Below, piece by piece: positions 4,201 through 41,357 of a stretch of 64,000 nucleotides of DNA. Numbering within the stretch: the stretch's first letter is position 1; every line of letters begins with the position of its first letter. The DNA comes from Azolla caroliniana (lineage: Eukaryota > Plantae > Polypodiophyta): the NCBI GenBank assembly GCA_043228905.1, contig JBHGNT010000009.1:9486001-9550000 (forward strand). The letters run 5' to 3'. The notes under the pieces are model-generated. The model saw only the letters and a list, made by a program, of their open reading frames with translations, did no database searches and had not been told where the DNA came from. Both the position numbers and the translations under genes were made by a program.

Positions 4201-6300
4201 TGTTATTCTGTTCTCAAGACGTGTTGGAAACAATGTGATCATTCAATTTCGTTCACAAATCAATTCCAGATTATATCGCAAAATGAACAAAGGATCGTAT
4301 ACCTTGAGGAATGGGATCGAACGGATGCCTTTAATTGCAAGAAGCATATCCACAATTGCTATTCTCACTGCAAGGTTACAATCAGAAAACAAAGACCCTA
4401 GACGTGGGAGAAGAGCTTTTGACAATTCATGGCTAGCTGGATTATCTAGTAAATACGTAATGCCTTGCAGGACAGCACACCTAACAGAAGCATTGGACTT
4501 ATCTAGAGATGTCTCATCAATTAGTTTAGAAAGAAGCTTCACAGTCGTAGTAGGTGATACCACCTCCCAAAACAACCTAAGGATCCGACAGACACCTTCA
4601 ACTGCCGTGATTCTTATGTCCGGACATGGATCGGTTAATAACTTCTCTAAGAAAACAAATTGTTTATCTAACAGAATGCCATTCTCTTCTTTTGAAGCAT
4701 TCGGATCTTCCAAAGGAAACATATCGATCAGCAAAAGTAATGCATTCCGACGCACATTCGAGTTAGCTACCTGTCCAATCAAGCAAAAAAAATATTGGTT
4801 GTACAAGACATCACATATATATCAGCATGTGATGCAATGGCTATTATTTGCAAACGAACTAGAATAACGAAGGAACAAGGGGATTTAGAAGTGAACAAAT
4901 TATCACAACAGGAACTCCCAGCTCAAATTGTATTCCAGCTATTTGTCCATAGATAAAAAAACCTACAACTTCTTTTCCAATTAATTTAAATTCATAAATA
5001 AAGGTACACCAACTATTTTTTTATTATGAATGCAGGCTGTACAGTATCTTTTCAATAGCTAAACTTCACAAAACCAGTGTTAATAAAAATAGTAAAAAGG
5101 TCAAATATTTCCCTTTCAACGCCTAACCAAAAGTATGGATAAAAATTAAGCTGCATTCACAAAACCCTACAAATAAGTCGGTTTGTCAATCAAAGAAATA
5201 TATACAGCAAGAAAACTATGTACCTGTAGGGACCTGAATAGTATAGGTTCTTGAAGACGGAAAAGAAGAGCTTCCACACCTTCTTGTGTCCTTTGTGCAG
5301 TAAATGATACCAAGATCTTACGGATTGAAGATGCTAATGTTTTAGAGGAAGCATAGACAGCACCTTCAATTAAACTTTGCATACAAAACTCTTCAATTAT
5401 ATCACGATTACAATTATCACTTGCTGTCTTCCATGCTCGGAACAGTATCTCACCATACGCTTCAAGAATAGACTTCCTTCCAAAAGGGATTTGAGATTTT
5501 ACGATCACTATGAGCTCTTTGGTGAGTTGACCATTGATGTTGAATAGGAAAGTGATGAATCGGCAACCATCAGTTGAACGGAGATATGCTGGTGTAAGAA
5601 CACATCTCATTAGAAGGTGTTTGAGATCTTCTATGCTCTCATCCATGAAATCGAAGAGTGTAAAAGCTTCCCTCATGTTATAGACTCGATGCACATGAGC
5701 CTTTCTACCAATTTCTAAGGATTTAGAGAGTAAAAAAGGAAGAGATTGTGCAATGAGTGATTCTCGACCAGGAAGATGATCTTTCCACCATGTTTCACAT
5801 AATGTTGCAATGATGTCTTGTAGCTCGATGTCATCTTCGAAGAAAACAAGTTGATCGTGTAAGGTTTGAACTGTAGGAAACAAATCGCATGGCTGAAAAG
5901 CCTTTTTAGGATGACAGAGAGCTAGATGAGTTACCGTCGCACATGCCTTCAGATTAGACAAAATGAAATCTTTCCTGTTTATCCTACCTCTACCTTTCTC
6001 TGGAGAAGAAGCTAAGGAAGAAATATTGCAAGCTCTTCGTCTTCTCTTTCTTTTCGGAGAAGGTGTCTTGAATTCATCAATGTCATTCTCATATTGAGAG
6101 TTGTCAAGGTTCTGAAAAGCTTGAACCTGAAGGTCAGAAAATGCAGAGAGAGATCCACATAGTCGTATGGCTTGATCCTTGGAGCTCCTATGGATGGCTG
6201 CCTTTAGAGAAGCTTTATTAGGTCTGGAGTTATACCTGACCACTAAGCATAATAGCTCGTCTGGTGATGAATCCAAAGCATTGTAGTAGGCTTCCTCCAT
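1227..6300 (-). CDS. CAP-G2: Condensin-2 complex subunit G2, ~1281 aa. Exons 6300-5224, 4770-4303, 4039-2954, 2537-2369, 2272-1227; alternative in-frame ATG at 6327
   Basis: Motifs LFRLQEPILFRSLQVANSNVRRNA, FPLEDP and LLIPSYFP match plant CAP-G2/NCAPG2. GT-AG junctions join in frame (3846 nt including stop). Confidence 0.9.
2592..2900. mobile_element. Degenerate Mutator-like MITE inside CAP-G2 intron 3
   Basis: Left AACATCCCTGAATTTTC...AATGCCC matches the reverse complement of the right end (AACATCCCTAAATTTTC...AATGCCC). The right end finishes TTTCCC. No TSD is readable. Confidence 0.5.
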
Positions 6301-18953: not shown

Positions 18954-22001
<3,048 letters not shown>

Positions 22002-23807
22002 ATGATTCCTCTGTTTCTGGCTGGGAAGGAAATACAGATACTTCAAGCAATCAATCAAGTTTTATCGATGGGTTTGGTTTTTTGTCTGTTATTTCTTGTA
22101 GTGGACTTTTTTCAGAGTGAAAAAGAAGCTTGTTCGTTTTTTTGGACGCTACTTTTTGATCATAAGTGATCAATACGGTCAAATACAATGTAGTTATTAG
22201 CAAAGAATATTTGTCAAAACTTGTGTGTGTAGGTATATCCGATTGTAGTTTCTTATTTATTCTGTAATCAATCCACTACCTTTTTTTTATATTTAACAAT
22301 TGGTTACTCTTACTCTTAGCCTGAATCTTTTTATTTGTTGCTTTGAGTTGGTTTTGATGCATAGATTCTTGTTGCAACTGTCTACTTGTCTCAATGTTCA
22401 GGAATTAGTCCTGACTCGCGATTTTCATCTCTGAACAAATTGTTCATACTGGTCGAAGAATATGTTGAGCATATAACAAATATCCAATGATCAACAATTT
22501 AGTAATTTTATGCTTAATTAACTGAGGCCTTTCACTTTCAACAAGACGTAAAAAGTATGCATGGTTGGTGTCTAATAGATTCGTACCCTAAATGTAACTC
22601 TGTCTATTTCTGTCACGCCTCATTGTACTTTACTTCCCTGTTATTTTGCTATCTATCATGTAAGTTAGCATTTTTGCTCTTGCATATAATGAAATCTATA
22701 AATATTTTTTATCCATAAATGCACGCACAATGTTATCTGAAACTTAATAGCACTAAACACTTATGTAAAACAGAAATATGTTGTGCAAGATTAAAAAGAA
22801 AACAAGAAAGATACACAACAAACTCTATGCACAATACACCACAAAATTTTTTACATTTTTTATTTTTCCAAAAAAATACACCACAAATTTTAGCGTAGAA
22901 AACCCATAAGACGTAAAAACCACGCGACCTAGTCCAGAAATAATGCACTATCAAATATAAATTTGATACACCAAAGTTCGACTCTAAATCTGATATTGGG
23001 TATGTTTGATTTGGCATCGGGGATATCTCCATGTGTGATGATTTGGCGTGGCACAATGACTTGATGTGGTTTTGTGGGCTCGGCTCAGCTCAGCTCAATG
23101 TTTCTCGTGAGCTCTTGTATGTGTTTTCTGATTCGATTACTTTTTGTTCATCGGCTTAAAGCAAGATGTCCACTTTCATCTGTTGGGGGTAACTTTGGCA
23201 TAGTAAGACTCAGTGTAGCCTTCAATCTCGAGTGGATGGACGGGTTCGAAACGTGATAGAGTCTTGGTCTTTTTTCCCGATCTGTCTCGCATTAGAGTAC
23301 ATATGTGTCCAGCTACTTCGAGCTCCTGCATCGAGAATTTCTTGTGAAGTCTTTTCTTTAGCTCCTTGATTTTCTGTTCTATCTTGTTTTAAATTTCAGG
23401 GTTGACTATGATGCGGGCTATGGAAGCTTGAAAATTTAAACAGAAAATTTTAGACAGAGAGAGAGAGAGAGAGTCGTGGAGAGAAGATCGAAGCTGGAGA
23501 CGCATCAGGCCTTGATTTGGCGAAGATTTGGGATATAGGGAAGAGGATTTTTGGTCTGCCTGACGTCCTCACTGATCTGTTGAAGCTATATCCTGCTTCT
23601 TTCTTTTCATATATCGCAAAAATGGTATATTTTATCTTGTATTACCGATGATTTGGGAAAAGCAATCTCTCTTTTCTGTAAAGAAATTCTCCACTTGGTT
23701 GGAAAAACTCTAGTTTTGGTCAGTCAAAGTATCTAGTGTTTTTCCAATGGGCAATCTCTATTTGATTTAGGGTGCTTTACTACAATTGAAGTGCCATTTA
23801 GTTCTCC

Positions 23808-23915
23808 TTGGACTGATACTGGATGTGATGTACCTGGATTGTGGCTCTCCTAAGATGAGACTTGGACTGATACTGGATGTGATGTACCTGGATTGTGGCT
23901 CTCCTAAGATGAGAC
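23808..23915. repeat. Perfect 54-bp tandem duplication
   Basis: TTGGACTGATACTGGATGTGATGTACCTGGATTGTGGCTCTCCTAAGATGAGAC occurs twice in tandem. Confidence 0.95.
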
Positions 23916-25034
23916 AAAATTTCACATATGGCAATGCATAAAGTCAGTATTGCTTAAAGAAAATGTTTTAGTTGCAGAATATGTTTGATTAAGAATTTCC
24001 TTTCTAGTCAGATTTCTATTTCGTTTTTTGGTGCTCTGGGGGCTGTTTTTTTAAATAATAAACTCAATTCCAATGTGCTTCACACCATCTGTTAAATAAC
24101 TATCGGATGTGTATATTATCTGCTTATATGACAGTAATATTTCAGGTCTCCGACATAATAGATATTAGACATGTGTGGGCTATTGTTGGAATCAGAAGGA
24201 TTTGGTTTTGCACCAGAAATCTGGTTTTCCTTGTTTAATTAGACAATATCTTTTTCTTTGATTTTTGCCTCTATTTTTCGGGCAATTTTTTGATCTGCGT
24301 TCTCCTTATTGAAAAACTCCCTCTCTCTACTTCTCTTTCTAAAAAGCTTAATATGCCATAGCCTTCGAAATCAGAAGTTGCTACTACTGAGACTGTGCAT
24401 TGATGATCTTTGTAGGAGATGTATGTCTGCATGGAACGAGGTGTCCATATGTGCCAAGGTGCCCCAGTATTGATGAGCCCCGAAAGGGAGAAATCCTCTG
24501 TTTCATATTGCATAACCAGGGAGGGTTGCTCAATCACCTTATAATCTGTCCATCCCTAGTCTAGATCATGACTCTGTATGCTTCACACTTCTGGCTGACT
24601 CTGCGGTTTAGCAAAGTAGCCCTCCTCACTTGTTGTTGTACATACTGCCTTTCATGCCAATTAAAGACGTTTTGTACTGGTTTAATCTGTAGGTTAATAC
24701 ATCTCATGATGTCCAACACATAGCATGGGCTATAGCATGTTGTATGTTTCTTTACTGTAATACAACGTCTTCTTTAGAAATGCAAAGAATGATATGCCTT
24801 CGACCTCCATATATGTATAGGCAGGCTGAGATGGGAGTTGACAATGTTCACCATGCAATTTTTTCCCAAGGTTCCAAATCCACTGTCCACTGTCAAAGGT
24901 TCCAAGATTGTGGTAATATGGCTCTATACTACTGTTTTCATTTTCTTGTGCAGATATTATTTACAATTGATATTGAAACTGTTGAAGAAGGTTTTGTACC
25001 ATATTTTAAACACTGTTAAGTTTGAGGACTAATA

Positions 25035-25795
25035 ATGTTGTGGGGTACAATTGAAGCCTTCTTTGAATTGATCTCATCTGAAATTGTGGCAGGCACTCCT
25101 GTTATGTTTGTGATCACCTACTTAATAGGACCAAAAGGACAAGCGATATTAGAAGATGAGGAAGGTTATATGTGGAAAGTGGAATGGTTAAGCTACATGC
25201 AATTAGGTAGAAGACTTAATTTCACAGTTGTCTGGCTAGAATTTGACTGTGCTCAGAATATCCAGGATGGCAACTTGCTTATCCTTCAAGTTGTGTCACC
25301 TATCCATTTCAAGCTTCACATAATACCTCTTGGTGGTAACTACTCGAGTCAACAATTTTTTGGATCGGTATTTTTTTCTTGTGGCGAATTTCTGTACTAA
25401 AGTACTTATGCCTTTTAATGAGGCATTTGTTGCATTTCCTGCTAGTTAAGGATGGTGCGTTAGAATGGAAAATGGTTTGGATTCCCATCTGTAAAATAGA
25501 TTCACCAGATATAGAAACTGAAACTCTAGAAAGAATTCTGGTGATACGAGATCCAAAACCGGTAAAACATAAGCCTCCTCTTTCAGAAACGGTATACAAG
25601 GCATCAATGTGCAAGAGATTTTTGTCAGGGAAGAACTCAGAAGAACCTTCCTCTAATTTGTCAACATTTAGAAACTCAAATATGGCAGGGCTAACATCTG
25701 GCTTGGATCATCTTGTTCAGGTGTCTCTTTTCTCAAATAATGTTCATGGACAGAAAGATCCAAGCTATGCAACTGCTCATGATGGAAAACAGTGA
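25035..25795 (+). pseudogene. B3/REM-like DNA-binding domain gene, divergent or decayed
   Basis: AILEDEEGYMWKVEW...WLEF....NIQDGNLLILQVVSPIHFKLHI resembles the C-terminal half of a B3 domain. No clean N-terminal half or full gene model could be built. Confidence 0.5.
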
Positions 25796-27199
25796 TGATT
25801 TTTGAGATGGTTTTACAAGCATGAAGTGCATAAGTAATAGGCATGAGTGTAGTGGTTAGTTGATGGTATGGCAGTTGCAGCTTCCTTTGTCATCAGGATT
25901 CCTATGATCGCTCTATGGTGACTCCTCAACACGTTAAAGAAGGTGAAGAGCCATGGGACTTTTTATTGACATTTAAATGTGTTGTGGAGTGGGCATCGTG
26001 GTTCCTACTTGAAATCTTGTGATTTTTTAGAATAGGAAATCAATCATACAGGGATGGATGGAATTCACTGATTTATAGTCGAAAGGGATATGATGACATT
26101 CACTCATTTTTTGAAAACACATGCATGTCTAATAGTTCATTAGTCAACAGTATATGAGTTGTTCTTGGGCTCATTTGGCATCCTTATATTTTGCTTGGTG
26201 TGGAAGATCAACTGGTAGTTCGTAATGATAGAGACCTAGAATTTCTTATGATCGATGAATTATGTATGACAGTGAGTTTTTTCATCAGTTTCATTAATTC
26301 ATCATTTAAATTATGCCAGCTTATCCAAGCCTACAACAATAAGTGACGTTCTGAAACAGGGAATGAACTACAAAAAGCTACATGAGGTATGTCTCATCAT
26401 ACCTGCAAGTCTTTTTTGGTATCCCTTTTACAAAATTGGTCATCTTTTATGATTTGTATAGTTTGGGAAAATATCTCATCGATACTTCATGCAGTTAAGG
26501 AAGTACCCATGTTTACATCCATAGTAGATGTTGGGGCTTGACAGGTATTTCTAACAAACATTTTGATGGATTTTGTCGTGTTTTCTTCTCGTACTAATGA
26601 ACTTACAGTCAATATATCAGGTTTACCTTTCTCAAGTATTGTCTTTTGAGTACTATTGCCCCTGTTGTGGCACTTGATGCATCGGAACACCATTGCTGTA
26701 TAACAAATGAGCTAAGTGCAGGAATTAAAAAGAACTCGTACAAATACATTTTGGGATAAATATGCTCACCAGCTACTCTGAGATAGAACCCTACCCAATG
26801 AGTCTTCCTATATCAAACAAATATAATATATGAACATACAAGCAACCAATCAAACCATACATACATACAAACAAACAAACATACCTATATACATTCAAAC
26901 ACATTTAAACAGAAAGTTTTAAATTAAAGGAATAAAGTAAAAATATTAATTTAAACAATCATTCAAAACATTATGATGCCTAAGCATGGCGATGATAGTA
27001 AGAATTCATGTTCTCTGTATTTAAGCTCCCCCTCAATCACAACTACACATTGTTTGATGATCTATTAACTATCAATGAGGCTACTATTGTTATCTGGACC
27101 ATATATTTACATAAGGCATGTCACATAACCATACATCTGATTGACTATTAATAGTAGCGTCACATACTGTAGATGAAATCCTCAATATAATTGCAACAA

Positions 27200-28000
27200 C
27201 ATTTGAGATTACTCAAGCCAAATTGGAGTATCCTAAAGTCTTTTCAATTACAAATTTAGGTTCTCTATTAGATTTCCTAGGCATGGAAATGACCTTGCAT
27301 TTTACTAAAATAAATTCATTCGGCATGCTAAACATTAAACCTTGCATGACTCCCTTGTCATCGACATGTGAACTCAATGTCAGTTGGAAATCACTTCGAG
27401 GGAGTTATGGTTACATACACACATTTAACTATAGCGTAACATATAATGATCCAAATTTGAAAGACTAATTCAATCATTATTTGGTTTGTCTGATTCGGAT
27501 TAAGGGGGTGGGGCAGCTACTGATTTTTCATTTATCATGGCGAGAGGAGCACTCAAAGAGTTTTTGACACTCTGATCTATAGATTCAGCGGAATTTGTAT
27601 TCAATAGCAATGGAGTGGCAGCAAGAAAAGAGAATATGGCTAGCAAATTCTACTGAAGGAATGTCAACCATGCAAATAGTTTAATAAATTGAAAACCTAC
27701 TGATGCGATATATCTTGTGTGTACTTTGACAAAGAATCCAAAGAAAACGAGGAATGTAGATTTTAAATATCACTTCATAAGAGAGCCTGATTGAAGAAAA
27801 CAAGCTTACATAATTAGGTTTTACATCCATAAACATAATAAATCCATCCTCTGGGGGCTGATTTCCTAGTAAAGGCTCTAATTCTTCACAAATTAATTAG
27901 TTCCTCTGTCGGTTGATTTCCTAAAAGAGGCTCTAATTCTTGAATCACAAATTAGTTAGTCTATGGGGGGTGTTGAAATAAGCTTAGTAGAGTTAGAATA
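27200..28000 (+). mobile_element. Highly degenerate Ty1/copia RT/RNase H remnant
   Basis: FSITNLGSLLDFLGME, TKNP and DFKYHFIRE. PPT ATGGGGGG is followed by TGTTGAAATAAG at 27969. Confidence 0.6.
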
Positions 28001-28657
28001 AATAAATTAAAAGGAAAAATCGAACGTCTAAAAAAAGGTATCGAAAACAGACGCCTATTTAATGCCATGTCTCCTTATTTAATATGTATACATCACATTT
28101 GTGAAAGTATTATGAGCAGGGTACTGTACTGTTCCTGTTGATCACCTTGTTAACTTAATAATCGTAATCTATGTGTGGAACATTTATATGTTGGAACATA
28201 TATATGATTAAACAATTCATTCAAATTCATCAATGGCTTGAAAAGTCCATGTCAAGTGGATCGTCTTAATTTAGGGTCAACTGAATACCAATTAATAGGT
28301 CACGGTCAATTGTCTCTTTTTGGGTTGATTGTTTCTTTTAGGTCAATTGTTTCTTACAATAGGTTGATCTAAAGTCTAATTCAATTTATCAGTCTAATAG
28401 CTTCAATTGATCATATGGGAAAATAAATTGATGTTAGTTGATGGTTAGGTTAATGTGATATTTAATTTATTGATCATAAACCGAATAATTCGGCTGCATT
28501 ATAATTAAATTAGTGGGATTGAATGAGGTTACGCAATTCTAGACAACAATTTGATGTAATGAGGTTACATGGTGATTAAATAATTAACGCCCGCTAGAAA
28601 CAGACAAAATTTACAGCTCTGATCCATCGACGTTGAGGAAATAACGAAAAGAATCAA

Positions 28658-29040
28658 AGCCGTTGGATCTGGGAAAAAGGAAAGGGCATTCTGCAGAGAC
28701 CTCCGATGATTAGATTTGGACACAAATCAAGAAGCTTTGGTCAAACCAGACTTTTACGAGACGATACAGAAGTAAACTGTTTGTTTGTTCGAGAAATGAA
28801 AATTTCACAAACCCTAAATGAAACAGACAGGAAAGTTACAAGATTGGTCGCGGTAAATGGATGGGACGTATCTACTTACAACTCCGAATTATTAGCTCCA
28901 TGAGATAGATTCCCAAACAGTTTTGGTCCATCATCGCAAAAGCTCCTCAATATACGATGAATTACTCCATTTATTAATGGTGGGATTGATTCATAGTACA
29001 GCTACTGCGTTTAGGGTTCAGGGTTCAGGGTTTAGGGTTG
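28658..29040 (+). promoter_or_regulatory. Promoter motifs of the plus-strand gene: MSA-like element and telo-box cluster
   Basis: AGCCGTTGGA (reverse complement TCCAACGGCT) at 28658-28667. TTTAGGGTTCAGGGTTCAGGGTTTAGGGTT at 29010-29039, followed by a CT-rich leader. Confidence 0.5.
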
Positions 29041-29169
29041 AACTATGTATCGTTTACTTTGGCCACATCGGCCTTCACTTCAGAGATTCTCATAGGCTTC
29101 TTCTTCTTCTTTTTCTTCTCTCTACGATTTTCTCTCTGATTCTGCTTCTGTACAGCATTTCTTCCCCAA

Positions 29170-30084
29170 ATGGAAGGTAATTTAAATGAAAGGGCAGAAC
29201 TTCCAGATTAAAGCACACAATATGCAGTGTTAAAAATCCCCTAAAATTATAAAGTCCTCTCCAAGCAGCGATCAATGACGTGTGCTATATTTGAGCAGTT
29301 AATTGCAAATTCGGAGATTATTTATGTCCTGGAGCAATCACATTATTTATATATACACAGCAGATCATCAAGAAGGAATTGTATGACACACATAAGATTT
29401 CATTTCATGTATTGGATCATGATTACATTCGAGAAGATAGATGTCGTCCAAATGATCATGATGATTGTGTGTGTACTTGTATAACAGCTATGTATATACA
29501 TACATTCTTGAGCTTTGTATATATGTGTATATCTTTCTCTCTTTTTCAATTAGCCCGTCACGCCCACCAGTAAATTCTTGGGCACAGAGAAATTGTTCTG
29601 AACCTGGGCGATGGTGCGGCGAGGTGCCCAGAACATCTTCCCAGAGGTGGAGGAGGTGGAGGTGGAGGTGGAGGGTAGGGCAGCGGGAGGATGTCTTTGT
29701 TGATGATGAGGATGGCGGTTATGGGCATGATGGTTATCATAATAGGCATTCAGAAGCTCCTGGGTCCCGCAGAATTCCTTGGAGAGAGACTGAGACTGTG
29801 GTTCCATGGCCTGCTGCAGGCATCGCCCCGTCTTGGCGAGCCAGTCGGCAATCTCGTTCCCGCGGACGCCGCAGTGGGCCTTCACCTTCCTCAGCCTGAT
29901 GCGATGGCGCGGGAGGGAGGCGGAGATGGCGAGGATGGAGCAGAGCACCGGCATGATGACGCTGCGCAGGAGGGCTCTGTCCCGTGGGCACCGCCGCCTC
30001 AGCATGGCCGCCATGGACGGATCCTCCGCGTACCACCGGATGAGGAAGAGGGATTGCAGCGAATCCACATACATGTTCACCTCG

Positions 30085-30123
<39 letters not shown>

Positions 30124-30142
30124 GCAGGAGATGGAGATGGAC

Positions 30143-30174
<32 letters not shown>

Positions 30175-30684
30175 GAAGCAGAGGTCGTCGAAGGATTGAC
30201 TACAACAGGTCCATTCTTCTGATCGCCATCGCCATGGCCATGATGATGAGCTTCTGAAGTCGAAGAATCTTGTGTCCGGTCCACCAGGGATTGAAGGGCA
30301 TGCTGAATCGCGAGGAGCTCCACCAGCAGAACGTCGGTCCCCAGCGACTCCGGCAAGCGATCCAACGGCTCCCCCTCCTCTGCCGCCGCCACGATCGCAT
30401 CCTCCTCGTCTTTGCTTATACCTCCACAGCCATCATGATCATCATTCACTCTCGACGGCTCTAGAAGAAGATCCGACAATGGCTGGAAATACGGCGCGAG
30501 GTCCAGCTTCTTTGCGATCCCGTATGCTTCCTCCCCCTCGCTGTTGGTGTCGAAGAAGACTCCATAGCCAGCCTCGTATCGTGGCTCATCATCATCATGC
30601 TTCTTCTTCTCACCATTGCTGCTATTCTTCTTGTACGATCCGTCCGTGTATATATTCCATACAGTCGGACTTGATCTCGGGCTG

Positions 30685-30715
<31 letters not shown>

Positions 30716-33700
30716 GTGATGGGGGCCTGTCGAAGCCATCCATGACTCGGAAGCGCTCGAACGTGTCGATCTTCACGAGAGGCATCAGGGGTGTGGGGGG
30801 AATTCAATGTATACCAGAATCTCAAAGAAGGAATTGATTGATTGATAGATTGATTGATTGATTGACAGATTGATAGGTTGTACTAGCAGGAAGCAACAGT
30901 AATAGGGGGGAAGGCAACTGTAAGTAGTAGTAGCTAGCGATTGATACTAAAAAAAACTGAGAACTGAGTGAATTGGATGATGGGTGTAATATCAAGAAGT
31001 TAATAGGAATTGGAGATGAGAAATGATGAGTATGATGATATTAGTAGGTCCGTCATGATGATTAGAGAGAGAGCAGAGGGAAGAGTGGCTGAACAACTGT
31101 AGGAGAAATTGATTCTGGTATAAGAATTCTGCATGATGATCATGAGGAGGAGGTCCATGGAAGGAGATTTGATTAGAAAGAAGCTGCACAGTAAAATGTT
31201 GGTTGGGGAGATTAGCTTACCTATAGCTACTTACTCTACTAGAAAAAAAGAAAAACAGAAGTAAGATGTAAGAAGAAGGAAGTATGTAACAACTAGCTCA
31301 CCTCTGCTGCTCTGCTGCTACGACGGCTCCGACAGAAGTATGTTATGTATGTTATGTATGTATGTATGTATGTTATGTATAATGTATGTATGTTATGTAA
31401 TAAACGGACAAAAGAAAGAGGAGGAGCATTTTCTCATTTTTTTTCTCATTTCGCCATTTCGCGTTTTGCCCATTTCGCGTTTTCCATTTTCCGCGTACAT
31501 TTTCTTTTTTCTTGCGTTTCAGTGCACGCTCGCCCTGCCGGAATATATACCCGCCCGCCACCTGGCATTCTGCTTGCGTCATCACGGCTTCCGGAAAACG
31601 CAAAGATTCGTCATAACAAAATAAAATTAAAATAAACACCAAAAAGGAATGAAGAAAAAGCAAAACCATTTTACATATCTGTTTTTCCGACATGTACGTA
31701 TGTATGCATTTTGTCTTTCTCTTGTTTTTTTTTTGTTCTACTTTTTCCCGTGGGAGGGGTAAGTAAATACATACGGTAGTGGGTGTGGCAAATAATAAGA
31801 ATACAACATTGCGTATTCTGGATGGATGGGTGGGTGGGTCGAGTCGACACAGACGGGTATGTATTTTGGAAAATTCGAGCATGCCTGGCTTCACAAAAAG
31901 AAACCAAAAAACATAGTGCAATGTGTGTCGGTTCAAGGTGTTCGAACCGAGCACATGTCTTTATATCGACCCAATTATACCTCCACACTGATATCATTCC
32001 TCGGAGAATCCGAACCGTCATATATCCCTATTATTAATGGCAAGCTGAGTGAGAGTGGTTGTCAAGCACTCTCGAGCCACTAACCTTGTTTACCTGGACA
32101 TAGAGAACTCTTACTCACCTCTCTCCAAGGCGATCCTCATCAAGAAGTTAACTAGTGCCTCATTGAGGCGTCAACATTAGAAATGTAGACAAGTAAAATA
32201 ATGCAAACACCACATAGACTAACCCCACTTTGATTGGTAAGAATGACCATCACACATACAAGATAAGACAGGTTTGGTTCAAACGGACTTCACACTTCTC
32301 TCCTACGTATGAGAGAGAGAGAGAGAGAGCTTATGTCTTATGGGGTTTAAGAACTAGGAGATGGACCTGGGTTGAAAAGGTATGAAAAAACGGCTCAATG
32401 TCCTATTAGGTTGAGAAGGATAAAAAAGGTTTAAAAGTAACCTTTATAGTTCTTTACAAAAAGGTTCTGTCCCCTTCCACATTGGAGTGAGCCTCAAGCT
32501 CTAGCTTTATAATTCGTCATATGTCCTCCAATTATTTCACACTTAGTGAGGCCTTCGTTGAGGTCGAAGGTAGAGCCCCTTAGTCGTACTATATATTGAA
32601 AGTGTTGTAGCTTGAATGTGGGGTGGGGGTCCAAATCCATAGGATCGTCCAAAGACAAATTGTTGCATGGATCAGTATCCATTTGTGGCTCGTCATGACT
32701 CATGACCTGAAGCATTCTGTCTTCTGTTGTTTGATGGTGGCGAGGGTGAGGAAAAAGTGAGCAATTGAATGGGAGGGTCGTGCACATCCTCGTAGCGTAG
32801 CGACGAAGTGATCACTCACGCTAGGGTGAATGTCGGGGCTAGGAAGTAGAAGACAAAGTTTGGGCAAATGCTGGATGCGTAGACCATGCTTATTAACAAT
32901 CGAAAAGTATATATATATTATTATTTTGTTAGGTCCTTCTCAAGTGAGTGTTCTAGGCCATACATACATACATACATACAGTATGGCCTATTCTGTAGCA
33001 GTACAACGTTGTGATGATGGGGGAGGAGGTTGTTTCAAAGCACGAGGAACTCTTTCGCTACCTCAATGAGATGCTGAAGCAGGTGAGAACCACCAGATTA
33101 TACATACATATTTACACAGTTTTGTCAAGAGTATGGGTAGGCTTTAGATGGACCATATCTAGTTTCTGTGACCTGTCTGTGCTTTTTATTTAGATCGAAG
33201 AAGACATTGGGGAACCTGATTTGGAATTAAGGGAAACCATTTTATCTCTGAAGAAAGAAACAGCACGACCACCCACCGTTGCCGTGCGTCTTGATGATGT
33301 AAGCTCCTTACACCTAAATCTCACCTGTTATTGTAGTTCTTAAATCTGAAATCGCAGCTATCATCACATATCAAATGAATGCCTCTCCATTGTTATCCGT
33401 ATACCTAAATCTTGCTTCGTAATTGGAGAAAGACCGAGGTGGACAGATTGATGCCTTCGTGTTTGACTTTAGCTGTCCCCCCCCCCAAAAAAAACATGTC
33501 CTAGTTCCCTACAACGATCGCCCAATTTTGTATCAAAATATTTTTGAAGGGAACAAAATCTGACCAAAATATACGGATTTTTCGATTAATTCCCTTTCGG
33601 TTTTAAGGTATTTCTGGCTTAGAAACCTTTGCTCAATTGAAATATTACATGAGGAAATTTTGACTACCATTAGGAGACATTATTTTGTCTACTTATATGC

Positions 33701-34538
33701 AGAGATATTCTAGAAAATCGTTTTGACAAGTAGAGAAAACATGCAAAAAACTGATCAGTAACATTAAATTTGATTGTAGTGCAAATTGGTTGTATAGAGT
33801 TCCTATGGGTTAGAACTTGGATAATATGGGTTAGGAACCTCTAAGGTAAATTAAACTGGTAGTAGCAGTTGTGGTGGCATTAAAACATACGTCTGTGGCA
33901 TCAGTTTTATAGACTGAAGAAAACAAAACACCATTAAATTTCTCGAAAACATATGAAGAACCTAAAATAATTTTTTTAGCACATTATAATAGTTGTAGTC
34001 ATTAAAGTCCATAAGTATGTGTGGCATTGGGCATGAACCTTTGCATGCATCCCAGTGTATGAGACCTCATGAATGACCGAATTGTCATGCATACTCCAGG
34101 ATGTATGGAAGACATTAGAGCACATGAATGGAGTATAAACAAATTCGGCTACCTTGCAGTTTGTTTTTTAGCACATTGCTTGTGTTAATCATATTTTCGA
34201 CATCAATACACGAATCATATTTTGAAAATGATAAGTACGAGTTTATGGCTCAGATATATTTTTCTATCAAAGCAAAAGCTTTCTTCTGTTTATGTACACA
34301 GTCAGAGATTGCACAAGAGCTTGATAAGTTATCGGCAAAGCTTGATTGCGTGGAACAAACCATATCACCTTCTCTACTCGATCCACAAGTTCAGGGACTT
34401 TTGAGTGCCACAGCTGATCTATGGATTCCTACTATCACTGCTTCCTCGAATGAGCGAGTTTCCATTGCATCTGCCTCAAACTCTGAGGTACCTAACAAAG
34501 ATAATGTTGTTCCGAAGGATCAAAAGAATAAATTTTAG
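29170..34538 (+). CDS. Small uncharacterised protein. Proposed exons 29170-29176, 32933-32943, 32999-33082, 33194-33298, 34302-34538 (~147 aa); minimal model from ATG 33014 is 136 aa
   Basis: The last three exons join in frame (EELFRYLNEMLKQ|IEED..RLDD|SEIAQELDKLSAKLD..DPQVQGLLSATADLWIPTITA). ATGGAAG|gt plus the 11-nt micro-exon gives in-frame MEGPSQ; these two 5' exons are less certain. Confidence 0.7.
29550..30785 (-). CDS. Stand-alone RNase HI-family protein, 411 aa, with poly-Ser/poly-His inserts
   Basis: All catalytic motifs in order: IYTDGS, AGYGVF, VELLAI, MYVDS, KVKAHCGVRGNEIAD. Uninterrupted 1236-nt ORF with no adjacent RT. Confidence 0.85.
32025..32824 (+). mobile_element. Candidate non-autonomous Helitron, 800 bp
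   Basis: 5' A|TCCCTATTATTAAT. 3' hairpin TCGTAGC-GTA-GCGACGA (32790-32806) lies 14 nt before CTAG (32821-32824). The next base is G, not the canonical T. Confidence 0.55.
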
Positions 34539-34547
34539 AGGGTAGGT

Positions 34548-34760
34548 GTTTCTGTATTGAGATTGTTTTTCATAAGTTGTAAACTAAGATTAAGGAAACT
34601 CATAATTTCATTTTGCTCATTATGTCCTCGGAAGGATGCACTTTTAATAATGAATGGTTAATGTTTCTGTATTGAAATTGTTTTTCATAAGTTGTAAACT
34701 AAGATCAAGGAAACTCATCATTTCATTTTGTTCATTATGTACTCGGAAGAACACACTTTT
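34548..34760. repeat. Diverged ~100-bp direct duplication in the 3' UTR region (34548-34646, 34663-34760)
   Basis: GTTTCTGTATTGA.ATTGTTTTTCATAAGTTGTAAACTAAGAT...CTCGGAAG occurs twice. Confidence 0.85.
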
Positions 34761-35186
34761 GGTGTGTTCATTGTTCATCGTTATGTTGCTCAATTGTAGT
34801 TTTTGATTGTTAATTAAACCCTGTGAGGAGGAAAAACAAAAAACCCTAATTCATAAGAAGTGAGTTCATTTCACTCACATAAAATAGGTGTCAAGAACAT
34901 TGACATGCTTCCTGTTAATATGGGAGCACCTTCAGTTTGATCTCATATCAAAAATTTTAAAGTTGAGGGCAACCTATTATTACATACTGGTTGTCTTGCT
35001 GTATATACGTTGTGTAATCGAAGCATGTAGAAGCTTCACTTGTGAATATGTTCTTATATCAAGCTGATATTCTGTCATATTAGATATTCAGTCAGGGCAT
35101 ATATTGGGCATCTGGTTTTCCTCGAAAGATTCTTGAATTTCTCGCCTTGGTCTTATAAAAGGAAATGATCTTCGTCATTAAATTAA

Positions 35187-35499
35187 GGGAAAAGTACCAG
35201 GATACCCCTGGAAGTTCGTCTATTTACCAGAATGCCCCTGGAAGTTCCAAATTTACCAAACTACCCCTATGTCCAAAAAAATACACTTTATAAAGTAAGT
35301 ATACACTCAAATCTTTGGTAAATAGGGCTAGTTCGGGTCTATTTCTTCCATCTTTGATAAATAGGGCTTGTAGATTTGAGTGTATAATTACTTTATAAAG
35401 TGTAATTTTTTGGACATAGGGGTAGTTTGGTAAATTTGGAACTTCCAGGGGCATTCTGGTAAATAGACGAACTTCTAGGGGTATCCTGGTACTTTTCCC
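35187..35499. mobile_element. Mutator-type foldback MITE, 313 bp
   Basis: Near-perfect ~128-bp TIRs starting GGGAAAAGTACCAGG. Perfect 9-bp TSD TTAAATTAA (35178-35186, 35500-35508). Confidence 0.95.
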
Positions 35500-35699
35500 T
35501 TAAATTAACTATGATTGCTACCATTTATTCTCACCATTATTAGTATAGCCGTTCTTCTTGACATCATCCCAACATCTCCATAAATCGAGTCACTTGAGGG
35601 AACATTGCTTTCACTATTTCTTTTTTCCGGATTCGATACACATCTAACTTAGACATTGAGGACACACTCACATCATGTATCTAGTTAAGTTGTTTTGAC

Positions 35700-38600
35700 A
35701 TCCAACTTTTCTCATGATTTAGATAGAAAGTAGAGAGATCGTTCAGAGTGTATAAAGAAGCTAATGTTTCTTGAATGTATAAATTTAAATGGTATACAAG
35801 TGTATCTTGTCATGGGTTTACATCACATTGAGCTAGGTTTCTCAATATTTTTGTTGCAGAAATGCAAATATGCGGGAGTTGTGAATAAAAAAGATTTGTA
35901 TTGTAATATATCACGTCTAATGATCTTGATCCAATTAAAGTATCTCAGTTCTTTTGTTAACTTTGATAGAGATAACCTGGAATTGTTTGAATTCTAGAAT
36001 GGTGTGGATTCAGGATTTGTAATTATCACAATTAAATTGTCCTAGAGAATCGAGATCAACATTTGACACTAATTCAACCCTTAGTGGTGAGAAAACTACT
36101 CATTTGGATATAGATTTATAAAGAACAAGAATTTGAGGTATTTTAATCAAAACTAATGATAGTTAAATGAATGGATTACGGGTATGTAACCACACCAAGA
36201 ACATGAAAGGGAAGTTCAAGAGACGAATATAAAACCTCATTACTGTCACAAACCATCAAATATGACCTTTTTTATACCTTGGATGTTAGGTGGAAGATAT
36301 GACATATGTGATCTTTGCCTCAACACATCCTCAACATCGTTGAGTTTCCTTTATATAGTTAAACTCCTTAGGCTGCTGAGCTGCCATTTGTTCCCACATG
36401 CCCAAGGTCCTTATGGACCATGGATTTCTCCAAAATCCCAAGATAATGAATTTCACTCTTATCTCGCCCTTAAATCCATTGAAATTAGCTTCCTGATTTG
36501 GTTCATAAGGTTATTCCCATAACATTTTTCAAATATGTTTTTCATTAAGGAAGCTAGTCATAATAACATGCTCTTTTTCCTATGTTTGAACTTGAATCAC
36601 ACATACTTTAATTCAACAACTTAGTTTTGAATTCTCAAACTAGTTTAGATCTCAAATCTTTAATTTGAGTATCAAGAAGATATATTTCTAAATGATAGGA
36701 ATGAGTTGTTATGAGTTCAACCAATCGGTTGCATAGATGAAGACTTGCAAGAATGCTACACATGTGTTCCTAAGTTTGAGTGAGTTTGAGAGTTGTTTTG
36801 CTTAGCTCTTAGGGTGGGATCAAAGATTAATGGGGTGAATGTTCTTGAAGTCAATCATGATGAAAGAATGAAACTTGGTATTCAACTAGAAGATTACAAT
36901 GGTCATAATGGGCTAATCGAGAACCGAGATGATGTAAGAAGAATATGTCAACAATACAATAGGCAGAAAAAGAATTTGTCATCAAGTGCTATAAATAGAT
37001 CTAGGAGATTGGAATACTTAAAATTAACAATGTGTTACAAACGTAGAGGTCAAACAAATTAATGACAAAGGTTTGGACAATTTAGAACAATCTACTTCCA
37101 ACTCACATCGAAGAAAATAACCTGTCAAGAAAAAGTAGCCCATGAATTGGCATAGGCATCAAAAAGTCATATGAGAGCCTAAAAGAGAAGGTTAATGTTG
37201 AAGAGAAGGTGGAGAAAATGCTAAAAGATGATGAGCTATAATACACTTACGAGTTGAACATATACAAGGGAGAATGTGAAGAATTAGAAGCAACTTGAAT
37301 ATTATAACATGTACAATATGAAGAGACGACTAAGGGAGATGGTACAATATATAATACATTCTCAACTTATGGATATGAATTGGGCAATGCGAAAGAAATG
37401 AAAAAGGTTGAATGGGAAATGACTAGATATGATCTAGATGATGCAATGCCAAGAATATCCAAAGCTTCGTACCTCAAAACCATATATTAAGAGAGGGAAA
37501 TATAGAAGTTTGGATGTGATCTAGACAATGAGACAAATACCATCTCCGAACTTCGTGTCCAAGCTTTGGTATACATGAGGGCTCACATGAAGTAGCAGTC
37601 ATATGAAGATATTGGCATTAAAGATGTGATAATGATAAGTAGCCTTGAAGACACTATGCTCGGGACAATACAAAAGAGAGAGGAATTTAAGATGAGGCCT
37701 AGGATTTTGACTAGAAAATATTCAAACATGAGCAAGATGAAGAGGAAGAGTGTAACGAAAATCCCGAGGCTTGGGTGTTGATGATCTGGGATGGTCTGGT
37801 TGGTAGCAAGAAGATCAAAACTTCAGGCCCACATTGCAATAGGACCCAAGAGAAGGATAAAGAGGATGTGAAGATGAATGAGGATATAAAGAGTGAGGCT
37901 AGAGAAAGTAGACAAGAGCCAGATGAAGATCTTGTGGATGAGGACATATTAAGAGGTGTTCTTTTAGATGTATCTAACATGACGAGAACACGGGCTAACA
38001 CAAAGTATTAGTAGATAGAAGATGAGGGTACACATTGGCCATTTTGAAAATTGAAAAGATGGTAGGTACGGAGCTGACATTCATCCCTAAATGTGCACAC
38101 ATTGCACTTGAGGATACTTCCACACGATTACGATAGAAGGCCAAAGCACTATTTTGCAAGGCCAAATAAAAAAGGAAGAGAATGAAGGGGAATGTCTAGA
38201 ACTTGATGAATGGAGAAGAAGATCTTAGAGGGAGGGAATGTTAGTACCTCGTCGTGTGCCACTCCATACTTTTACCATGTGTTGTGATCACATTACTAAG
38301 TAATTCAATCTACGTTTGTTGGTACATTGTTTAACTAAGATTCTTCTACATGATATGCAATATTGTCTCTCATGCTACACGTCCAATCCTTATTGAGCTG
38401 GTAATCTTGCTTTTTCATATACAAGATACATAATGTTGGTTAATGAAGGCCCTACATAGAAGTTGTTAACAATGTTAGAATGGATTACGCATTTCAACTT
38501 AGCTAATTTAGCTTTCTTCCTTTGGAATATCTTTATTCACAATTAATTGCGCTTCACACATATCATCAAAATTTTCTCTTAAACTAGAAATGACAGTTAC
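35700..38600 (+). mobile_element. Very degenerate LTR-retrotransposon-like remnant
   Basis: Purine-rich, stop-riddled sequence. PPT-like AGAGGGAGGGAA is followed by TGTTAG near 38239. No clear domain. Confidence 0.3.
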
Positions 38601-39565
38601 AAAGTCTTAGAAAAAGAGACATTCATTATGTATTAATTGGATAATGACATGATTGACATTGGAGAAGAATGTAGCCTTCGTATATGATGCAATAATATTT
38701 GTCCACCTTAAACCCTTAAGCATGAAACTATCTGAAATCTATCCTAGCTTTTTGACAACCAATCACCTTTTGTCCTTTAGGTGACACCATTTCGAATAGA
38801 TCAACGAGACATTGGTTGTGAATCTAGTCTAAGTGCTCGAACTCGCAACATCGTGTAACTTTCCTAAATTCCGGCTTATACAATTGGTTTTTTTTCAAGG
38901 ACACACACTCAAACCATGACAAGCCATGGTTTCATCAATTTCATGAAGGAAGAAACACAACGGTACTCATTGCCTTCTCTTTCGACTAGGAGAATATTGA
39001 CAATTGTATTAACGTATCCCTTTGATTGTGGGGCAAAATGTTTTGATGACATTATAGCCAAAAGTGTTTCCACAACTAGCAAGCTTGAGAGGATTTGACA
39101 TCTATCATAACCTATCATGTTGACTGTTTAATCTTCGAGAAGGGATGTAATTAGTCAACAATATAAGGTTAGCAGCAGGAAGGGATGTCCAGATGGGGCA
39201 AATTCCTCGAATGAGAGTTGGGCCACATCAAGAAATGGGTGTTGAATGGCACATATCATATGAACCGCTGCGGTGCATTGGAGAGAGCATGTAGAGGAGG
39301 TGGGAGATGTCGATGCGAGTGTTGTGACATACAAGGACACATGTAGGAATGGGTGGTAGGGTCTTCTGTTTTCGGGGAGGCGCATGGGATCGGGCAAAGG
39401 ATCTCGAGAATATTGGGTATCCGTAGTCACGCCAAGCTGAATGATCAAAGAATTGGGTGGCCAACGTGACACGATAGCCGGCCGATTGTGAAGGACTCCG
39501 GAGGCCATCCCAGCCACATCTGTCAAAACATTATTTTGGGAGGATAGAAATTTCATTGAGTGTGT

Positions 39566-39596
<31 letters not shown>

Positions 39597-39870
39597 GGGT
39601 TGGGTGCTCTCTTTTTGAAAGGCCCAGAAAACGAGAGAACAGAAAAATCCTCCTTCAAGGATTTAAAAAAAACCCCCAAAAAATGAAAAGAATAAATAAT
39701 AATCGATTACAAAAATTAGGAAAAGGAAATAAAAAAACCATCACAAAACCAAATCTTCTTCTTCTTCTTCTTCTTCCTTTTTATAATTACATATTTTTGT
39801 TGGCCTTCGTTTCTTCTGCACATACGGAGGGGATCATCCATCCCATCCCATCCCATCCCATCCCTTCCAT

Positions 39871-39902
<32 letters not shown>

Positions 39903-41357
39903 AAGGAAGCTAAGATCAGAGGTCACCCCCCTCCCTCTCTCTCTGCGTGTTTGTTTCTCCATCGCCTCCTCCTCCACTTCTTCTACTCTATTCAGGTATT
40001 CCTCATTCCCTTCATCATGTCCGCCAAGCGTTCTTATTTCTCGTGGAACTCCTTCTTTTAAAAAAAATGAAGCTTTGCTAAATCTTTGCAACTTTTGGTT
40101 GCTTTAGTTTCTGTGCATTTCACTTCTTCTTTCTTCTTCTCGATGCCCATATACTTCTCGGGTATCTTTTGATCATCCTTCGGTAAAGCTTGATTAGGCG
40201 TAAGAACTATTCTCCGATTGGTTCAGTTTTTCGTTTCTTGATACGATAAGCTTTGCTAAATCTTTATCCGCATCATTTTTGCTTCAATTTCGGAGTTTTT
40301 TATTATTATAGATTTTCATATTTTTTTGGTACAACTTTGATCTTCCTTTGGTAAAGCTTACCTGTATGATTTTTAATTTTGGAACTTGATAGGTTTATGT
40401 TGTTTCTTCTGTTTATAGAATTCTCATTGTTGCTGTAATAAGCTTAAATAGCTTATGTTTTTTCGTTCCTTTTTTTGATCTGAGAATGATTTCCAGTACG
40501 GTCTAGATTCTTATAACTCTAGTTCTTTAATTCTCCTATGACGATTTCACATATTTGTTTACTGTCTTTTACTCAGAAATTCTTTTCTGATTCAATATCT
40601 TAAGACTTTTTTATTTTCTCTTAAACTTCCCTCGTTCATTTGTTTTGAGAAACTTTTACTCACTGCAAAAAAGATTCGTTCCTGTATGGTATTTCTGCAA
40701 AAAATTACAGAGGCTATGGTAGGCTTATACGGTTAGGTAATTCTTCGCTTTCGCTTTGGTAAGCCCAAGTACCTACAATATTTGTTCTTCTATTCCTGAA
40801 CATTCTTCACATATTCTTGTAGATTTTATTGTGATAAGGGAAGATTTCTCTTTCTTAAAAACCGATCCTTTCATGGAAGCTAATCATTTCCTCTTTAAAG
40901 ATTTATACTGAAACTATACTTATAGAGTATTCTGAATTGAAAGGATCCTAGTAAGTTTTTCCTCCTAGAATTGTCCATCCTTTATCTGTAAAATGTGAAT
41001 TTCAAGCAGTTTAGACTAATTATTGGATTGTGCCTCTATTCAAATTAAAGAGAAAATTCAGAAACACCGGTTGATAAAATTTTATCCTCCTCCGCAGGAG
41101 GTCAAATAGATAGAGAGAAACAATGGGAGAAATAAATAGATAGATTCATCCTGGAATGTCAAATAGATTTGGAGAGAATTATCAATGAATACGTAAAGAG
41201 ATAGAGAGGCATTCTAAAGAGACCTTAACTTTCTATCTTAAGACTGTTCCAACGCCTTTGTCATTAATATGAGCTTGAGAGTGCGAATTTCTGAGATTCT
41301 CATCCATTCTCCATAACAAACTTTTTTTCTACAGTGTTCTAGCTTTATTCAAGTGTC

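What the first reader, a model, noticed from the sequence alone, without database searches (positions are those of the whole stretch)
29550..30785. Stand-alone His-loop RNase HI gene of a type atypical for land plants
Seen: an intact 411-codon ORF with all four acidic catalytic residues (TD, VE, VD, AD) and KVKAHCGVRGNEIAD. It is visibly more GC/CpG-rich than the neighbouring genes and has no RT, endonuclease or LTR beside it. Known: land-plant cellular RNase H1 and the extra RNase H of Tat/L1 elements are archaeal-like, with Arg in place of this His. The His-loop form belongs to bacteria, fungi, metazoa and some non-LTR elements. Inference: the DSL.SL.LI.....P segment recalls RNase H of green-algal Dualen/RTEX LINEs. 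This may be a domesticated or horizontally acquired RNA:DNA-hybrid nuclease gene.
Basis: partly seen in the sequence, partly recalled or inferred. Interest (0 to 1): 0.82.

Follow-up and report, generated by a model that had tools for sequence, protein, structure and literature searches.

The report
Fern gene for non-plant RNase H
A fern carries an intact, low-copy gene, conserved in related species, for a predicted RNA:DNA-hybrid-cutting enzyme of the histidine type known from bacteria, fungi, animals and some jumping genes rather than the arginine type described for plants, and it was likely captured from a mobile element and kept as a host gene.

Summary
Observation confirmed. 29550-30785 (-) is an intact, intronless 411-aa ORF with D48/E156/D241/D314 and the His loop (H304). 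It matches Pfam RNase_H, not RVT_3, and models as a type-1 RNase H (core pLDDT >90; Z 14.7 to human RNase H1).

The host is a fern (neighbouring condensin G2 exon 73% to Adiantum). The gene is not a LINE fragment: single-copy depth in two runs and no RT nearby. Full-length stand-alone homologues (49% identical, same start) exist in relatives, with dN/dS 0.14 in conserved blocks. A second version in another organism has only in-frame indels (4 of 4). No close relative turned up outside this family among 1.84 billion representatives.

Origin is unresolved. Loss of the TN(N/Q)RAE motif and of the Trp-lined protrusion resembles I-group LINE RNase H, but trees cannot separate LINE, viral or cellular donors. 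The Dualen/RTEX link could not be tested. High GC is shared with the distant homologue, so it does not show recent transfer. Expression and activity are not shown. The scan had not noted this gene on other DNA.

Verdict: new variant of a known kind, a likely domesticated or acquired His-type RNase H1 family in ferns.

The parts
29550..30785 (-). Intronless ORF, 411 aa + TAA, His-type RNase H1-fold protein
   Evidence: homologues start at the same Met
30750..30785 (-). Conserved N-terminal motif MPLVK[IV]DT[FL]ER (res 1-12), family-specific, role unknown
30624..30662 (-). beta1 with catalytic D48 (30642-30644) and N54 (position of E. coli N16)
30483..30572 (-). beta2-beta3 (res 72-101) followed by conserved K-x-x-L-x-x-[YF]-F
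30285..30338 (-). Helix A with catalytic E156 (30318-30320), preceded by D-V-L-L-V where cellular enzymes have T-N-(N/Q)-R-(A/M)
30084..30272 (-). Low-complexity Ser/His insertion (res 172-234), not conserved, predicted disordered
30015..30083 (-). beta4 and helix B with catalytic D241 (30063-30065) and invariant IRWYA.DPS
29916..30014 (-). Family-specific basic segment (RRR, P.DRAL.R) and helix D, in place of the Trp-lined basic protrusion
29823..29906 (-). beta5, His loop KVKAHCGVRGNEIAD (H304 29874-29876, D314 29844-29846) and helix E
29553..29822 (-). C-terminal tail, mostly low-complexity; one short block (KEFCGTQELLNAY) loosely shared with homologues
31552..31585 (-). Non-coding block 33/34 identical in the orthologous locus L002 (contains TGACG and GGCGGGCG); candidate promoter element
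30786..32530 (-). Upstream region alignable in blocks to L002 at 75-82% identity, showing the same locus in a related species

Best explanation
[quoted passage not shown] Shown: intact ORF, all five active-site residues, stand-alone homologues in relatives, coding constraint, low copy, no RT nearby. Predicted: a complete five-strand, five-helix type-1 RNase H fold with long loops inserted. Inferred from the family: two divalent metals held by D48/E156/D241/D314 hydrolyse the RNA strand, with H304 on the flexible loop. With no HBD and no Trp-lined protrusion, it would grip the hybrid through the conserved RWY..DPS / RRR / DRAL.R segment. The likely job is removal of nuclear RNA:DNA hybrids (R-loops or reverse-transcription intermediates), as a second RNase H1 beside the Arg-type enzyme that ferns are assumed, but were not shown here, to have. 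Component odds: constrained gene 0.9; active hybrid RNase 0.7; non-LTR donor 0.45.
For: Residues and fold: pLDDT >90 over 111 residues; Z 14.7, rmsd 2.9 A, 144 aligned to human RNase H1; Ty3 and cauliflower mosaic virus RT only Z 6.1-7.1. Constraint: dN/dS 0.14 over 153 block codons, 0.32 over 333 aligned codons versus L001. In the second version in run X5, 20 of the 32 listed substitutions that I tallied fall at third positions (p=7e-4), 16 of 26 changed codons are silent against 25% expected, and 4 of 4 fully listed length changes are multiples of three. Low copy: contig depth 13-17 on the gene versus 11-18 on flanks in X1 and X4, while a MITE 4.4 kb away has bin depths of about 6,000-33,000. 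Stand-alone in a relative: L001 has no RT in 3.9 kb. LINE-like features: I-group LINEs have (S/T)V(F/L).(A/S)E and DSL/DSQ without the W..W..W segment, whereas cellular bacterial, fungal, animal and oomycete enzymes have T(N/T)(N/Q)R(A/M)E and that segment (PMC5348765 Additional file 8); the fern protein reads DVLLVE and DSL and lacks the segment. Four of the nine weak full-library hits come from arthropod genomes and read like LINE RNase H (my reading of the sequences).
Against: No RNA evidence was obtained and no activity was measured. Origin is not resolved. The fern clade sits in an open polytomy of His-type enzymes. With the His loop removed (63 columns), AU tests reject neither fern+Arg-type (p=0.19) nor fern+proteobacterial-like RNase HI (p=0.23). 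Profile scores to LINE (70), tandem protein P0011 (71), phage (69) and eukaryote-type cellular (69) sets are tied, and those sets were picked by similarity to the query. The structural match to Arg-type archaeal enzymes (Z 14.1, 13.7) ties with human RNase H1. The good model was built with bacterial RNase HI in its alignment; without them it had mean pLDDT 37.5. Asp151 stands where E. coli has Thr43 at the start of helix A, where the DNA phosphate pocket lies (pocket location PMC4132731 passages; residue role recalled), so specificity or activity may be altered. No fern LINE with a His-type RNase H was found as a donor.
Confidence: 0.5

Rival explanations
1. Same functional gene, but acquired horizontally from a giant DNA virus, phage, bacterium, fungus or oomycete rather than from a retrotransposon.
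For: Intronless and foreign to described plant RNase H1. The beta2 motif AGYGVFF and the KVKAH.G..GNE.AD.LAK loop also occur in yeast-type, oomycete, phage and metagenome cellular enzymes. PHROG 531 E=1e-8. Top viral fold hits are Medusavirus and Solivirus RNase H, at 15-16% identity. Nearest row by path in the tree is a metagenome cellular-type enzyme, unsupported.
Against: No close relative in GTDB genomes (0 of 151 in one phylum sample), viral contigs, plasmids, phages (best E 8e-3) or 1.84 billion representatives. Cellular donors keep the Asn-rich motif and Trp protrusion that this protein lacks. Proteobacterial-like RNase HI scores low (29-33).
Confidence: 0.28
2. The gene is real but the protein has shifted specificity or role: a nuclease for another duplex (dsRNA, RNA-DNA junctions) or a weak or regulatory RNase H.
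For: Thr43-position Asp and hydrophobic residues at the Asn44/Asn45 positions in all 6 family sequences; no HBD; rebuilt protrusion; long variable insertions. An archaeal RNase HI that lacks the canonical elements cleaves dsRNA (PMC9719913 passage).
Against: All five active-site residues plus N54, N310 and E311 are invariant across dS>1. LINE RNase H domains also lack the two Asn.
Confidence: 0.15
3. An ancient green-lineage cellular His-type RNase H1, retained only in this fern lineage.
For: Deep divergence from everything else is compatible with long residence; oomycetes carry both types as cellular genes (PMC5348765).
Against: No family member appears among annotated Adiantum, lycophyte, liverwort or seed-plant proteins, which the collection does hold. 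Intronless, with LINE-like motif losses.
Confidence: 0.05
4. A dead or selfish fragment of a LINE, or an assembly contaminant.
For: LINE-like motifs; no transcript seen.
Against: Single-copy depth; a contig in X4 joins the 3' end of the gene to 2.2 kb of flank; conserved start and upstream region in a relative; purifying selection and frame-preserving indels; no RT remains.
Confidence: 0.02

Closest known systems
Fungi/Metazoa-like type 1 RNase H (fmRNH; E. coli RNase HI, human RNase H1; PF00075)
   Same: DEDD core, His loop H-x-G-x-x-G-N-E-x-A-D, predicted fold (Z 14.7 human, 13.0 E. coli)
   Different: No HBD, no TN(N/Q)R motif, no Trp-lined protrusion, three long insertions, conserved novel N-terminal motif, found in a fern; about 20% structural identity
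RNase H domain of I-group non-LTR retrotransposons (I factor, You, Lian, TRAS1, Tad1-like)
   Same: His type; hydrophobic V-(F/L) in place of Asn-Asn before the catalytic Glu; DSL in I factor and You; no W..W..W segment
   Different: Stand-alone with its own conserved Met start, no RT or endonuclease, low copy, purifying selection; KVKAH rather than WVPGH/WIKAH; no supported grouping in the tree
Plant cellular RNase H1 (Arabidopsis RNH1A/B/C; Arg 'archaeal' type) and Tat/L1 aRNH
   Same: Type 1 RNase H fold and acidic core; structural Z ties with archaeal enzymes (14.1, 13.7)
   Different: Those have Arg in a short loop and an ATNNVAEY-type helix A, and the cellular ones were defined by an HBD (bioRxiv 10.1101/662080). 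This protein has His, the longer G..GNE loop, no HBD and no RVT_3 match; profile score to Arg-type set 16-20 versus about 70 to the best-scoring His-type sets
Dualen/RandI and RTEX LINE RNase H
   Same: Dualen/RandI is reported to encode RNase H (PMC4640811 passage); resemblance of KVKAH and DSL motifs is recalled, from no call
   Different: Not testable: no such RNase H sequence was available in the tools or supplements searched

Membership tests
Type 1 RNase H, His (fmRNH) subtype | DEDD acidic core | tested here: met
   D48, E156, D241, D314 in invariant columns with bacterial RNase HI
Type 1 RNase H, His (fmRNH) subtype | Conserved His in the loop before helix E (PMC5348765, PMC4408406) | tested here: met
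   H304 in KVKAHCG.RGNE.AD, invariant in 6 of 6 family sequences
Type 1 RNase H, His (fmRNH) subtype | RNase H1 fold (five strands, helices A-E) | tested here: met
   Model; Z 14.7/2.9 A/144 aligned to human RNase H1; model was alignment-assisted
Type 1 RNase H, His (fmRNH) subtype | Metal-dependent cleavage of RNA in RNA:DNA hybrids | not testable with these tools
   Needs in vitro assay
Type 1 RNase H, His (fmRNH) subtype | Groups with His-type enzymes in a tree | tested here: inconclusive
   100/99 on the His side with the loop included (Arg-type loop misaligned there); fern+Arg-type not rejected without the loop, p-AU 0.19
Plant cellular RNase H1 (aRNH, RNH1A/B/C) | Arg at the fifth active-site position, short loop | tested here: not met
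   His and long loop
Plant cellular RNase H1 (aRNH, RNH1A/B/C) | N-terminal hybrid-binding domain (Cauli_VI/HBD) | tested here: not met
   No PF01693 match in P0001, P0002, P0006; the same scan detects it in P0013
Non-LTR retrotransposon (LINE) ORF2 | RT and endonuclease in the same or adjacent frame | tested here: not met
   L001 likewise
Non-LTR retrotransposon (LINE) ORF2 | Multi-copy, 5'-truncated, decaying copies | tested here: not met
   Single-copy depth; dN/dS 0.14-0.32
Domesticated LINE RNase H | Phylogenetic nesting within a LINE clade | tested here: inconclusive
   Only 1-2 partial LINE-like rows; open polytomy
Domesticated LINE RNase H | Host-gene behaviour: low copy, same locus in relatives, purifying selection | tested here: met
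Domesticated LINE RNase H | Transcribed as a host mRNA | tested here: inconclusive
   No RNA holder listed; small runs X11, X12 do not cover the gene apart from repeats
Dualen/RTEX RNase H | Closer similarity to Dualen/RTEX than to other His-type domains | not testable with these tools
   No reference sequences obtainable
LTR-retrotransposon / caulimovirus RNase H | Degenerate loop without His | tested here: not met
   His loop present; Z 6.1 to Ty3 RT and 7.1 to CaMV RT versus 14.7

The most novel reading that the evidence does not exclude
A fern lineage domesticated a retrotransposon RNase H as a stand-alone nuclease that attacks the RNA:DNA intermediates of reverse-transcribing elements, including the polypurine-tract primer that LTR elements' own weakened RNase H spares. 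It would be a plant anti-retroelement factor built from a retroelement enzyme, and a possible reason why unreviewed notes on this same genome describe an abundant gypsy family that replaced its polypurine tract by a tRNA site.
Probability: 0.07. Interest if true: 0.85.

Novelty: new variant of a known kind. Interest (0 to 1): 0.55.

Why it matters
The papers read here split type 1 RNase H so that land-plant cellular genes and plant Tat/L1 elements carry the Arg type, and the His type belongs to bacteria, fungi, animals, oomycetes, retroviruses and non-LTR elements. A conserved, stand-alone His-type gene in ferns is an exception to that split. It is also a candidate case of a non-LTR RNase H domain becoming a host gene, or of gene transfer into ferns. 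It is directly testable: a 1.2-kb intronless gene that can be expressed, assayed on hybrids and used to complement an E. coli rnhA mutant. If active, a plant lineage runs two unrelated RNase H1 enzymes, which bears on R-loop control and retroelement restraint outside flowering plants.

Tried and rejected
No whole genome is held, so genome-wide copy number, LINE relatives and the presence of an Arg-type RNase H1 in this fern were not checked directly.

Expression: no RNA holder listed. X11 and X12 showed no cover beyond repeats; this is no evidence either way.

Searches for a donor:
- Sequence search of PDB gave only poly-His noise or E>=0.19.
- No relative was found in viral contigs (also none for P0012 or P0015), GTDB contigs, 151 genomes of one phylum or plasmids.
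- ESM Atlas listed generic RNase H clusters, best scores 0.91 and 0.89; the taxa shown rest on 2-8 members and were not used.

P0011 (tandem RNase H, ENA) first looked like a sister (HH probability 96.9), but other reference sets scored the same, tree support was 58/77, and it has no relatives. It is not accepted as a sister.

The first structure model was poor (mean pLDDT 37.5; no Foldseek match at E<=0.001).

High GC was rejected as evidence of recent transfer, because L001 has the same composition at dS 1.1-1.5.

CGCGTT is not enriched in the window (7 found, 5.5 expected). No Rfam match in 26000-36500.

A test of whether the K-x-x-L-x-x-YF segment binds a sliding clamp gave no verdict; the question is open.

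Tree rows dropped: P0010; P0010, P0016, P0015 and phage Phobos; only 8 of 80 GTDB His-type loci and 8 of 14 Arg-type loci were used.

Literature searches found no description of a His-type stand-alone RNase H in ferns. The library lacks most subscription papers, including Smyshlyaev et al. 2013, which I saw only as cited. One supplement of PMC4408406 could not be searched, and part 1 of 5 of PMC5348765 file 8 was not read.
Full report
Observation. The minus strand holds an uninterrupted ORF from ATG 30785 to TAA 29550, 411 aa, far longer than chance (longest ORF in 1000 shuffles: mean 124, max 295 aa). Pfam gives RNase_H (PF00075, E 5e-8, above cut-off) on residues 233-320 and no RVT_3 or HBD match. 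D48, E156, D241, H304 and D314 fall in invariant columns when the core is aligned, unguided, with 31 bacterial RNase HI proteins, one metagenome RNase H and four homologues. The gene is GC-rich (55.5%, GC3 0.62; 0.84 in the conserved blocks) against 38-40% and 0.30-0.45 for five neighbouring exons or ORFs. CpG o/e of 0.82 is high for host genes here but not above the gypsy ORFs. No RT, integrase or copia-like remnant lies in 22001-41000, Pfam finds no retroelement domain in nine flank ORFs, and no LTR-sized repeat brackets the gene.

Host. The condensin-II G2 exon at 5203-6300 is 73% identical to two Adiantum proteins, 57% to a Ginkgo-labelled record (Gb_ prefix, my reading), 50% to Riccia and Selaginella, and mostly 43-49% to angiosperms at full coverage. 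The host is therefore a fern, not close to Adiantum. Earlier unreviewed notes on this genome also guessed a fern. No whole genome is held.

Family. Two 90% clusters with five members in all (P0002-P0006, ENA, 404-414 aa) are 49-50% identical to the protein. They begin with the same MPLVK.DT.ER and keep every catalytic block, while the Ser/His-rich insertions differ in place and length. A profile of the core run over 1.84 billion representatives returned one strong hit (P0002) and nine weak ones (E 7e-8 to 8e-4). These were four arthropod sequences that read like LINE RNase H, a ctenophore RNase H1 with HBD, and four unnamed or metagenome RNase H proteins. No annotated plant protein appeared, although Adiantum, lycophyte, liverwort and seed-plant proteomes are in the collection. 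Members hidden inside the P0002 50% cluster or unannotated in those genomes cannot be excluded. Two metagenome contigs carry the family (2 of 87 pattern matches). L001 holds the whole P0005 gene with unrelated flanks and no RT. L002 holds the gene start of a close relative with 1.7 kb of upstream DNA alignable in blocks at 75-82%, i.e. the same locus.

Copy number and selection. In runs X1 and X4 (organism A) contigs on the gene have depth 13-17, like the flanks (11-18), while a MITE 4.4 kb away has bin depths of 6,000-33,000. One X4 contig joins the gene's 3' end to 2.2 kb of flank. Run X5 (organism B) has a near-identical and a roughly 89% identical version. Run X8 (organism C) has two differing contigs of the L001 type (loose ends match L001). 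X9 (organism D) has a short piece sharing two variants with B's second version, and X12 has nothing laid. So the family has about one to a few copies per genome in four organisms. Against L001, dN/dS is 0.14 over 153 conserved-block codons (blocks chosen by eye from the alignment, so biased low) and 0.32 over all 333 aligned codons; dS is 1.1-1.5 and near saturation. For B's second version I tallied 32 substitutions from the rows shown (16 rows of the table were not shown): 20 at third positions (p=7e-4), 16 of 26 changed codons silent against 25% expected. The four fully listed length changes are +3, +3, +21 and -48. L001's gene has the same GC bias (54.5%, GC3 0.60), so composition is maintained, not a mark of recent arrival.

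Structure. With six sequences the model was poor (mean pLDDT 37.5), though its top Foldseek rows were all His-type RNase H1 or RT, none significant. With bacterial RNase HI added, the 288-residue core reached pLDDT 75 (111 residues above 90), with five strands and helices A-E in RNase H order and the insertions as low-confidence loops. The wide structural search gives human RNase H1 Z 14.7 (2.9 A, 144 aligned), archaeal Arg-type enzymes 14.1 and 13.7 (tied), E. coli 13.0, and Ty3 or cauliflower mosaic virus RT 6.1-7.1. The fold therefore shows type 1 RNase H of the non-degenerate kind, but not the subtype, and the model is partly circular.

Subtype and origin. PMC4408406 and PMC5348765 (passages) define the subtypes by Arg versus His and place plant cellular genes, Tat and plant L1 in the Arg type. 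Additional file 8 of PMC5348765 (parts 2-5 of 5 read) shows Selaginella, Physcomitrella, Ostreococcus, rice, grape and Arabidopsis with the short Arg loop. bioRxiv 10.1101/662080 (first third read) defines plant RNase H1 by catalytic domain plus HBD. The fern protein has the long His loop and no HBD. Profile scores are 16-20 to Arg-type sets, 29-33 to proteobacterial-like RNase HI, 52-69 to phage sets, and about 70 to LINE-like, eukaryote-type and P0011 sets, the latter groups being selected by similarity to the query. In the same file cellular His-type enzymes have T(N/T)(N/Q)R(A/M)E and a Trp-rich protrusion. I-group LINEs have (S/T)V(F/L)xxE, DSL in I factor and You, and no such protrusion. 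The fern family reads D(V/I)LL(V/L)E and DSL and lacks the Trp pattern, which tilts me to a non-LTR donor. Against this, AGYGVFF and KVKAH look as much like cellular, phage or giant-virus enzymes. Trees on 83 and 63 columns leave the fern clade (98/98) unplaced among His-type rows, and without the loop cannot even reject a union with the Arg type (p-AU 0.19). PMC4640811 (passages) likewise notes weak support in RNase H trees. The Dualen/RTEX lead could not be tested for lack of sequences.

Mechanism. By family knowledge (PMC9719913 passages) the four carboxylates bind two metals and hydrolyse the RNA strand, and DNA is recognised by a phosphate pocket at the start of the first helix and by the protrusion (PMC4132731 passages). 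Here the carboxylates, His, N54, N310 and E311 are invariant, so catalysis is likely kept. The Thr43 position is Asp, the Asn44/45 positions are hydrophobic and the protrusion is rebuilt around an invariant IRWYA.DPS-RRR-P.DRAL.R segment (residue roles recalled), so substrate preference may be shifted. The acidic, conserved N-terminus does not look like an organelle transit peptide (my reading; no predictor was run), so I infer a nucleo-cytoplasmic enzyme that removes RNA:DNA hybrids. A role against reverse-transcribing elements is possible but unsupported beyond the statement in PMC4408406 that LTR elements' weakened RNase H is thought to spare the polypurine primer, and unreviewed notes on PPT-less gypsy elements in this genome, which I did not test.

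Novelty and verdict. Ten library searches found no report of a stand-alone His-type RNase H in ferns; other papers seen as passages only (PMC12652420, PMC3747384, 10.1101/572842, PMC5603734) added nothing on it. The scan's own index had no look-alike. It works like an RNase H1 and meets the tested sequence and fold criteria of the His subtype; it fails membership of plant RNase H1 and of intact LINEs. It is a new variant of a known kind: real, constrained and unusual for plants, with donor, expression and activity open. Interest 0.55.

Noticed in passing
window 35178-35508: MITE with 137-bp terminal inverted repeats (97% complementary) and internal 30-bp repeats; bin depth about 6,000-33,000 against about 15 for unique DNA, so a very high-copy family.
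   Followed up: partly
window 30486-30509 (-), residues 93-100: K-x-x-L-x-x-[YF]-F conserved in all six family sequences right after beta3; resembles a PCNA-binding box lacking its Gln (motif recalled, found post hoc); binding untested.
   Followed up: partly
window 31440-31585 and L002:1103-1260: Conserved non-coding blocks upstream of the gene: a 34-nt block (33 identical) with TGACG and GGCGGGCG, and CGCG-containing repeats; candidate promoter.
   Followed up: partly
P0011 (ENA, contig up to 2564 bp): 437-aa protein made of two tandem RNase H domains, the first degenerate; no relatives among 2891 candidates.
   Followed up: partly
window 25026-25400 (+): Weak B3 DNA-binding domain match (E 2e-4, below cut-off), possibly an exon or remnant of a REM-type gene.
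   Followed up: no
window 57779-59300 (-): Gypsy integrase region appears as tandem near-duplicate pieces (three similar ORF stretches) downstream of a pol ORF at 59348-61720 and gag at 61924-62871.
   Followed up: no
run X5 on window 29564-30666: Organism B carries two versions of the gene, one near-identical to the window and one about 89% identical that shares variants with organism D; fits a hybrid or polyploid origin.
   Followed up: partly
window 34128-34538 (+) and 34547-34760: 136-aa ORF without a family match followed by a 115-bp tandem duplication; covered by contigs of the putative RNA run X11.
   Followed up: no
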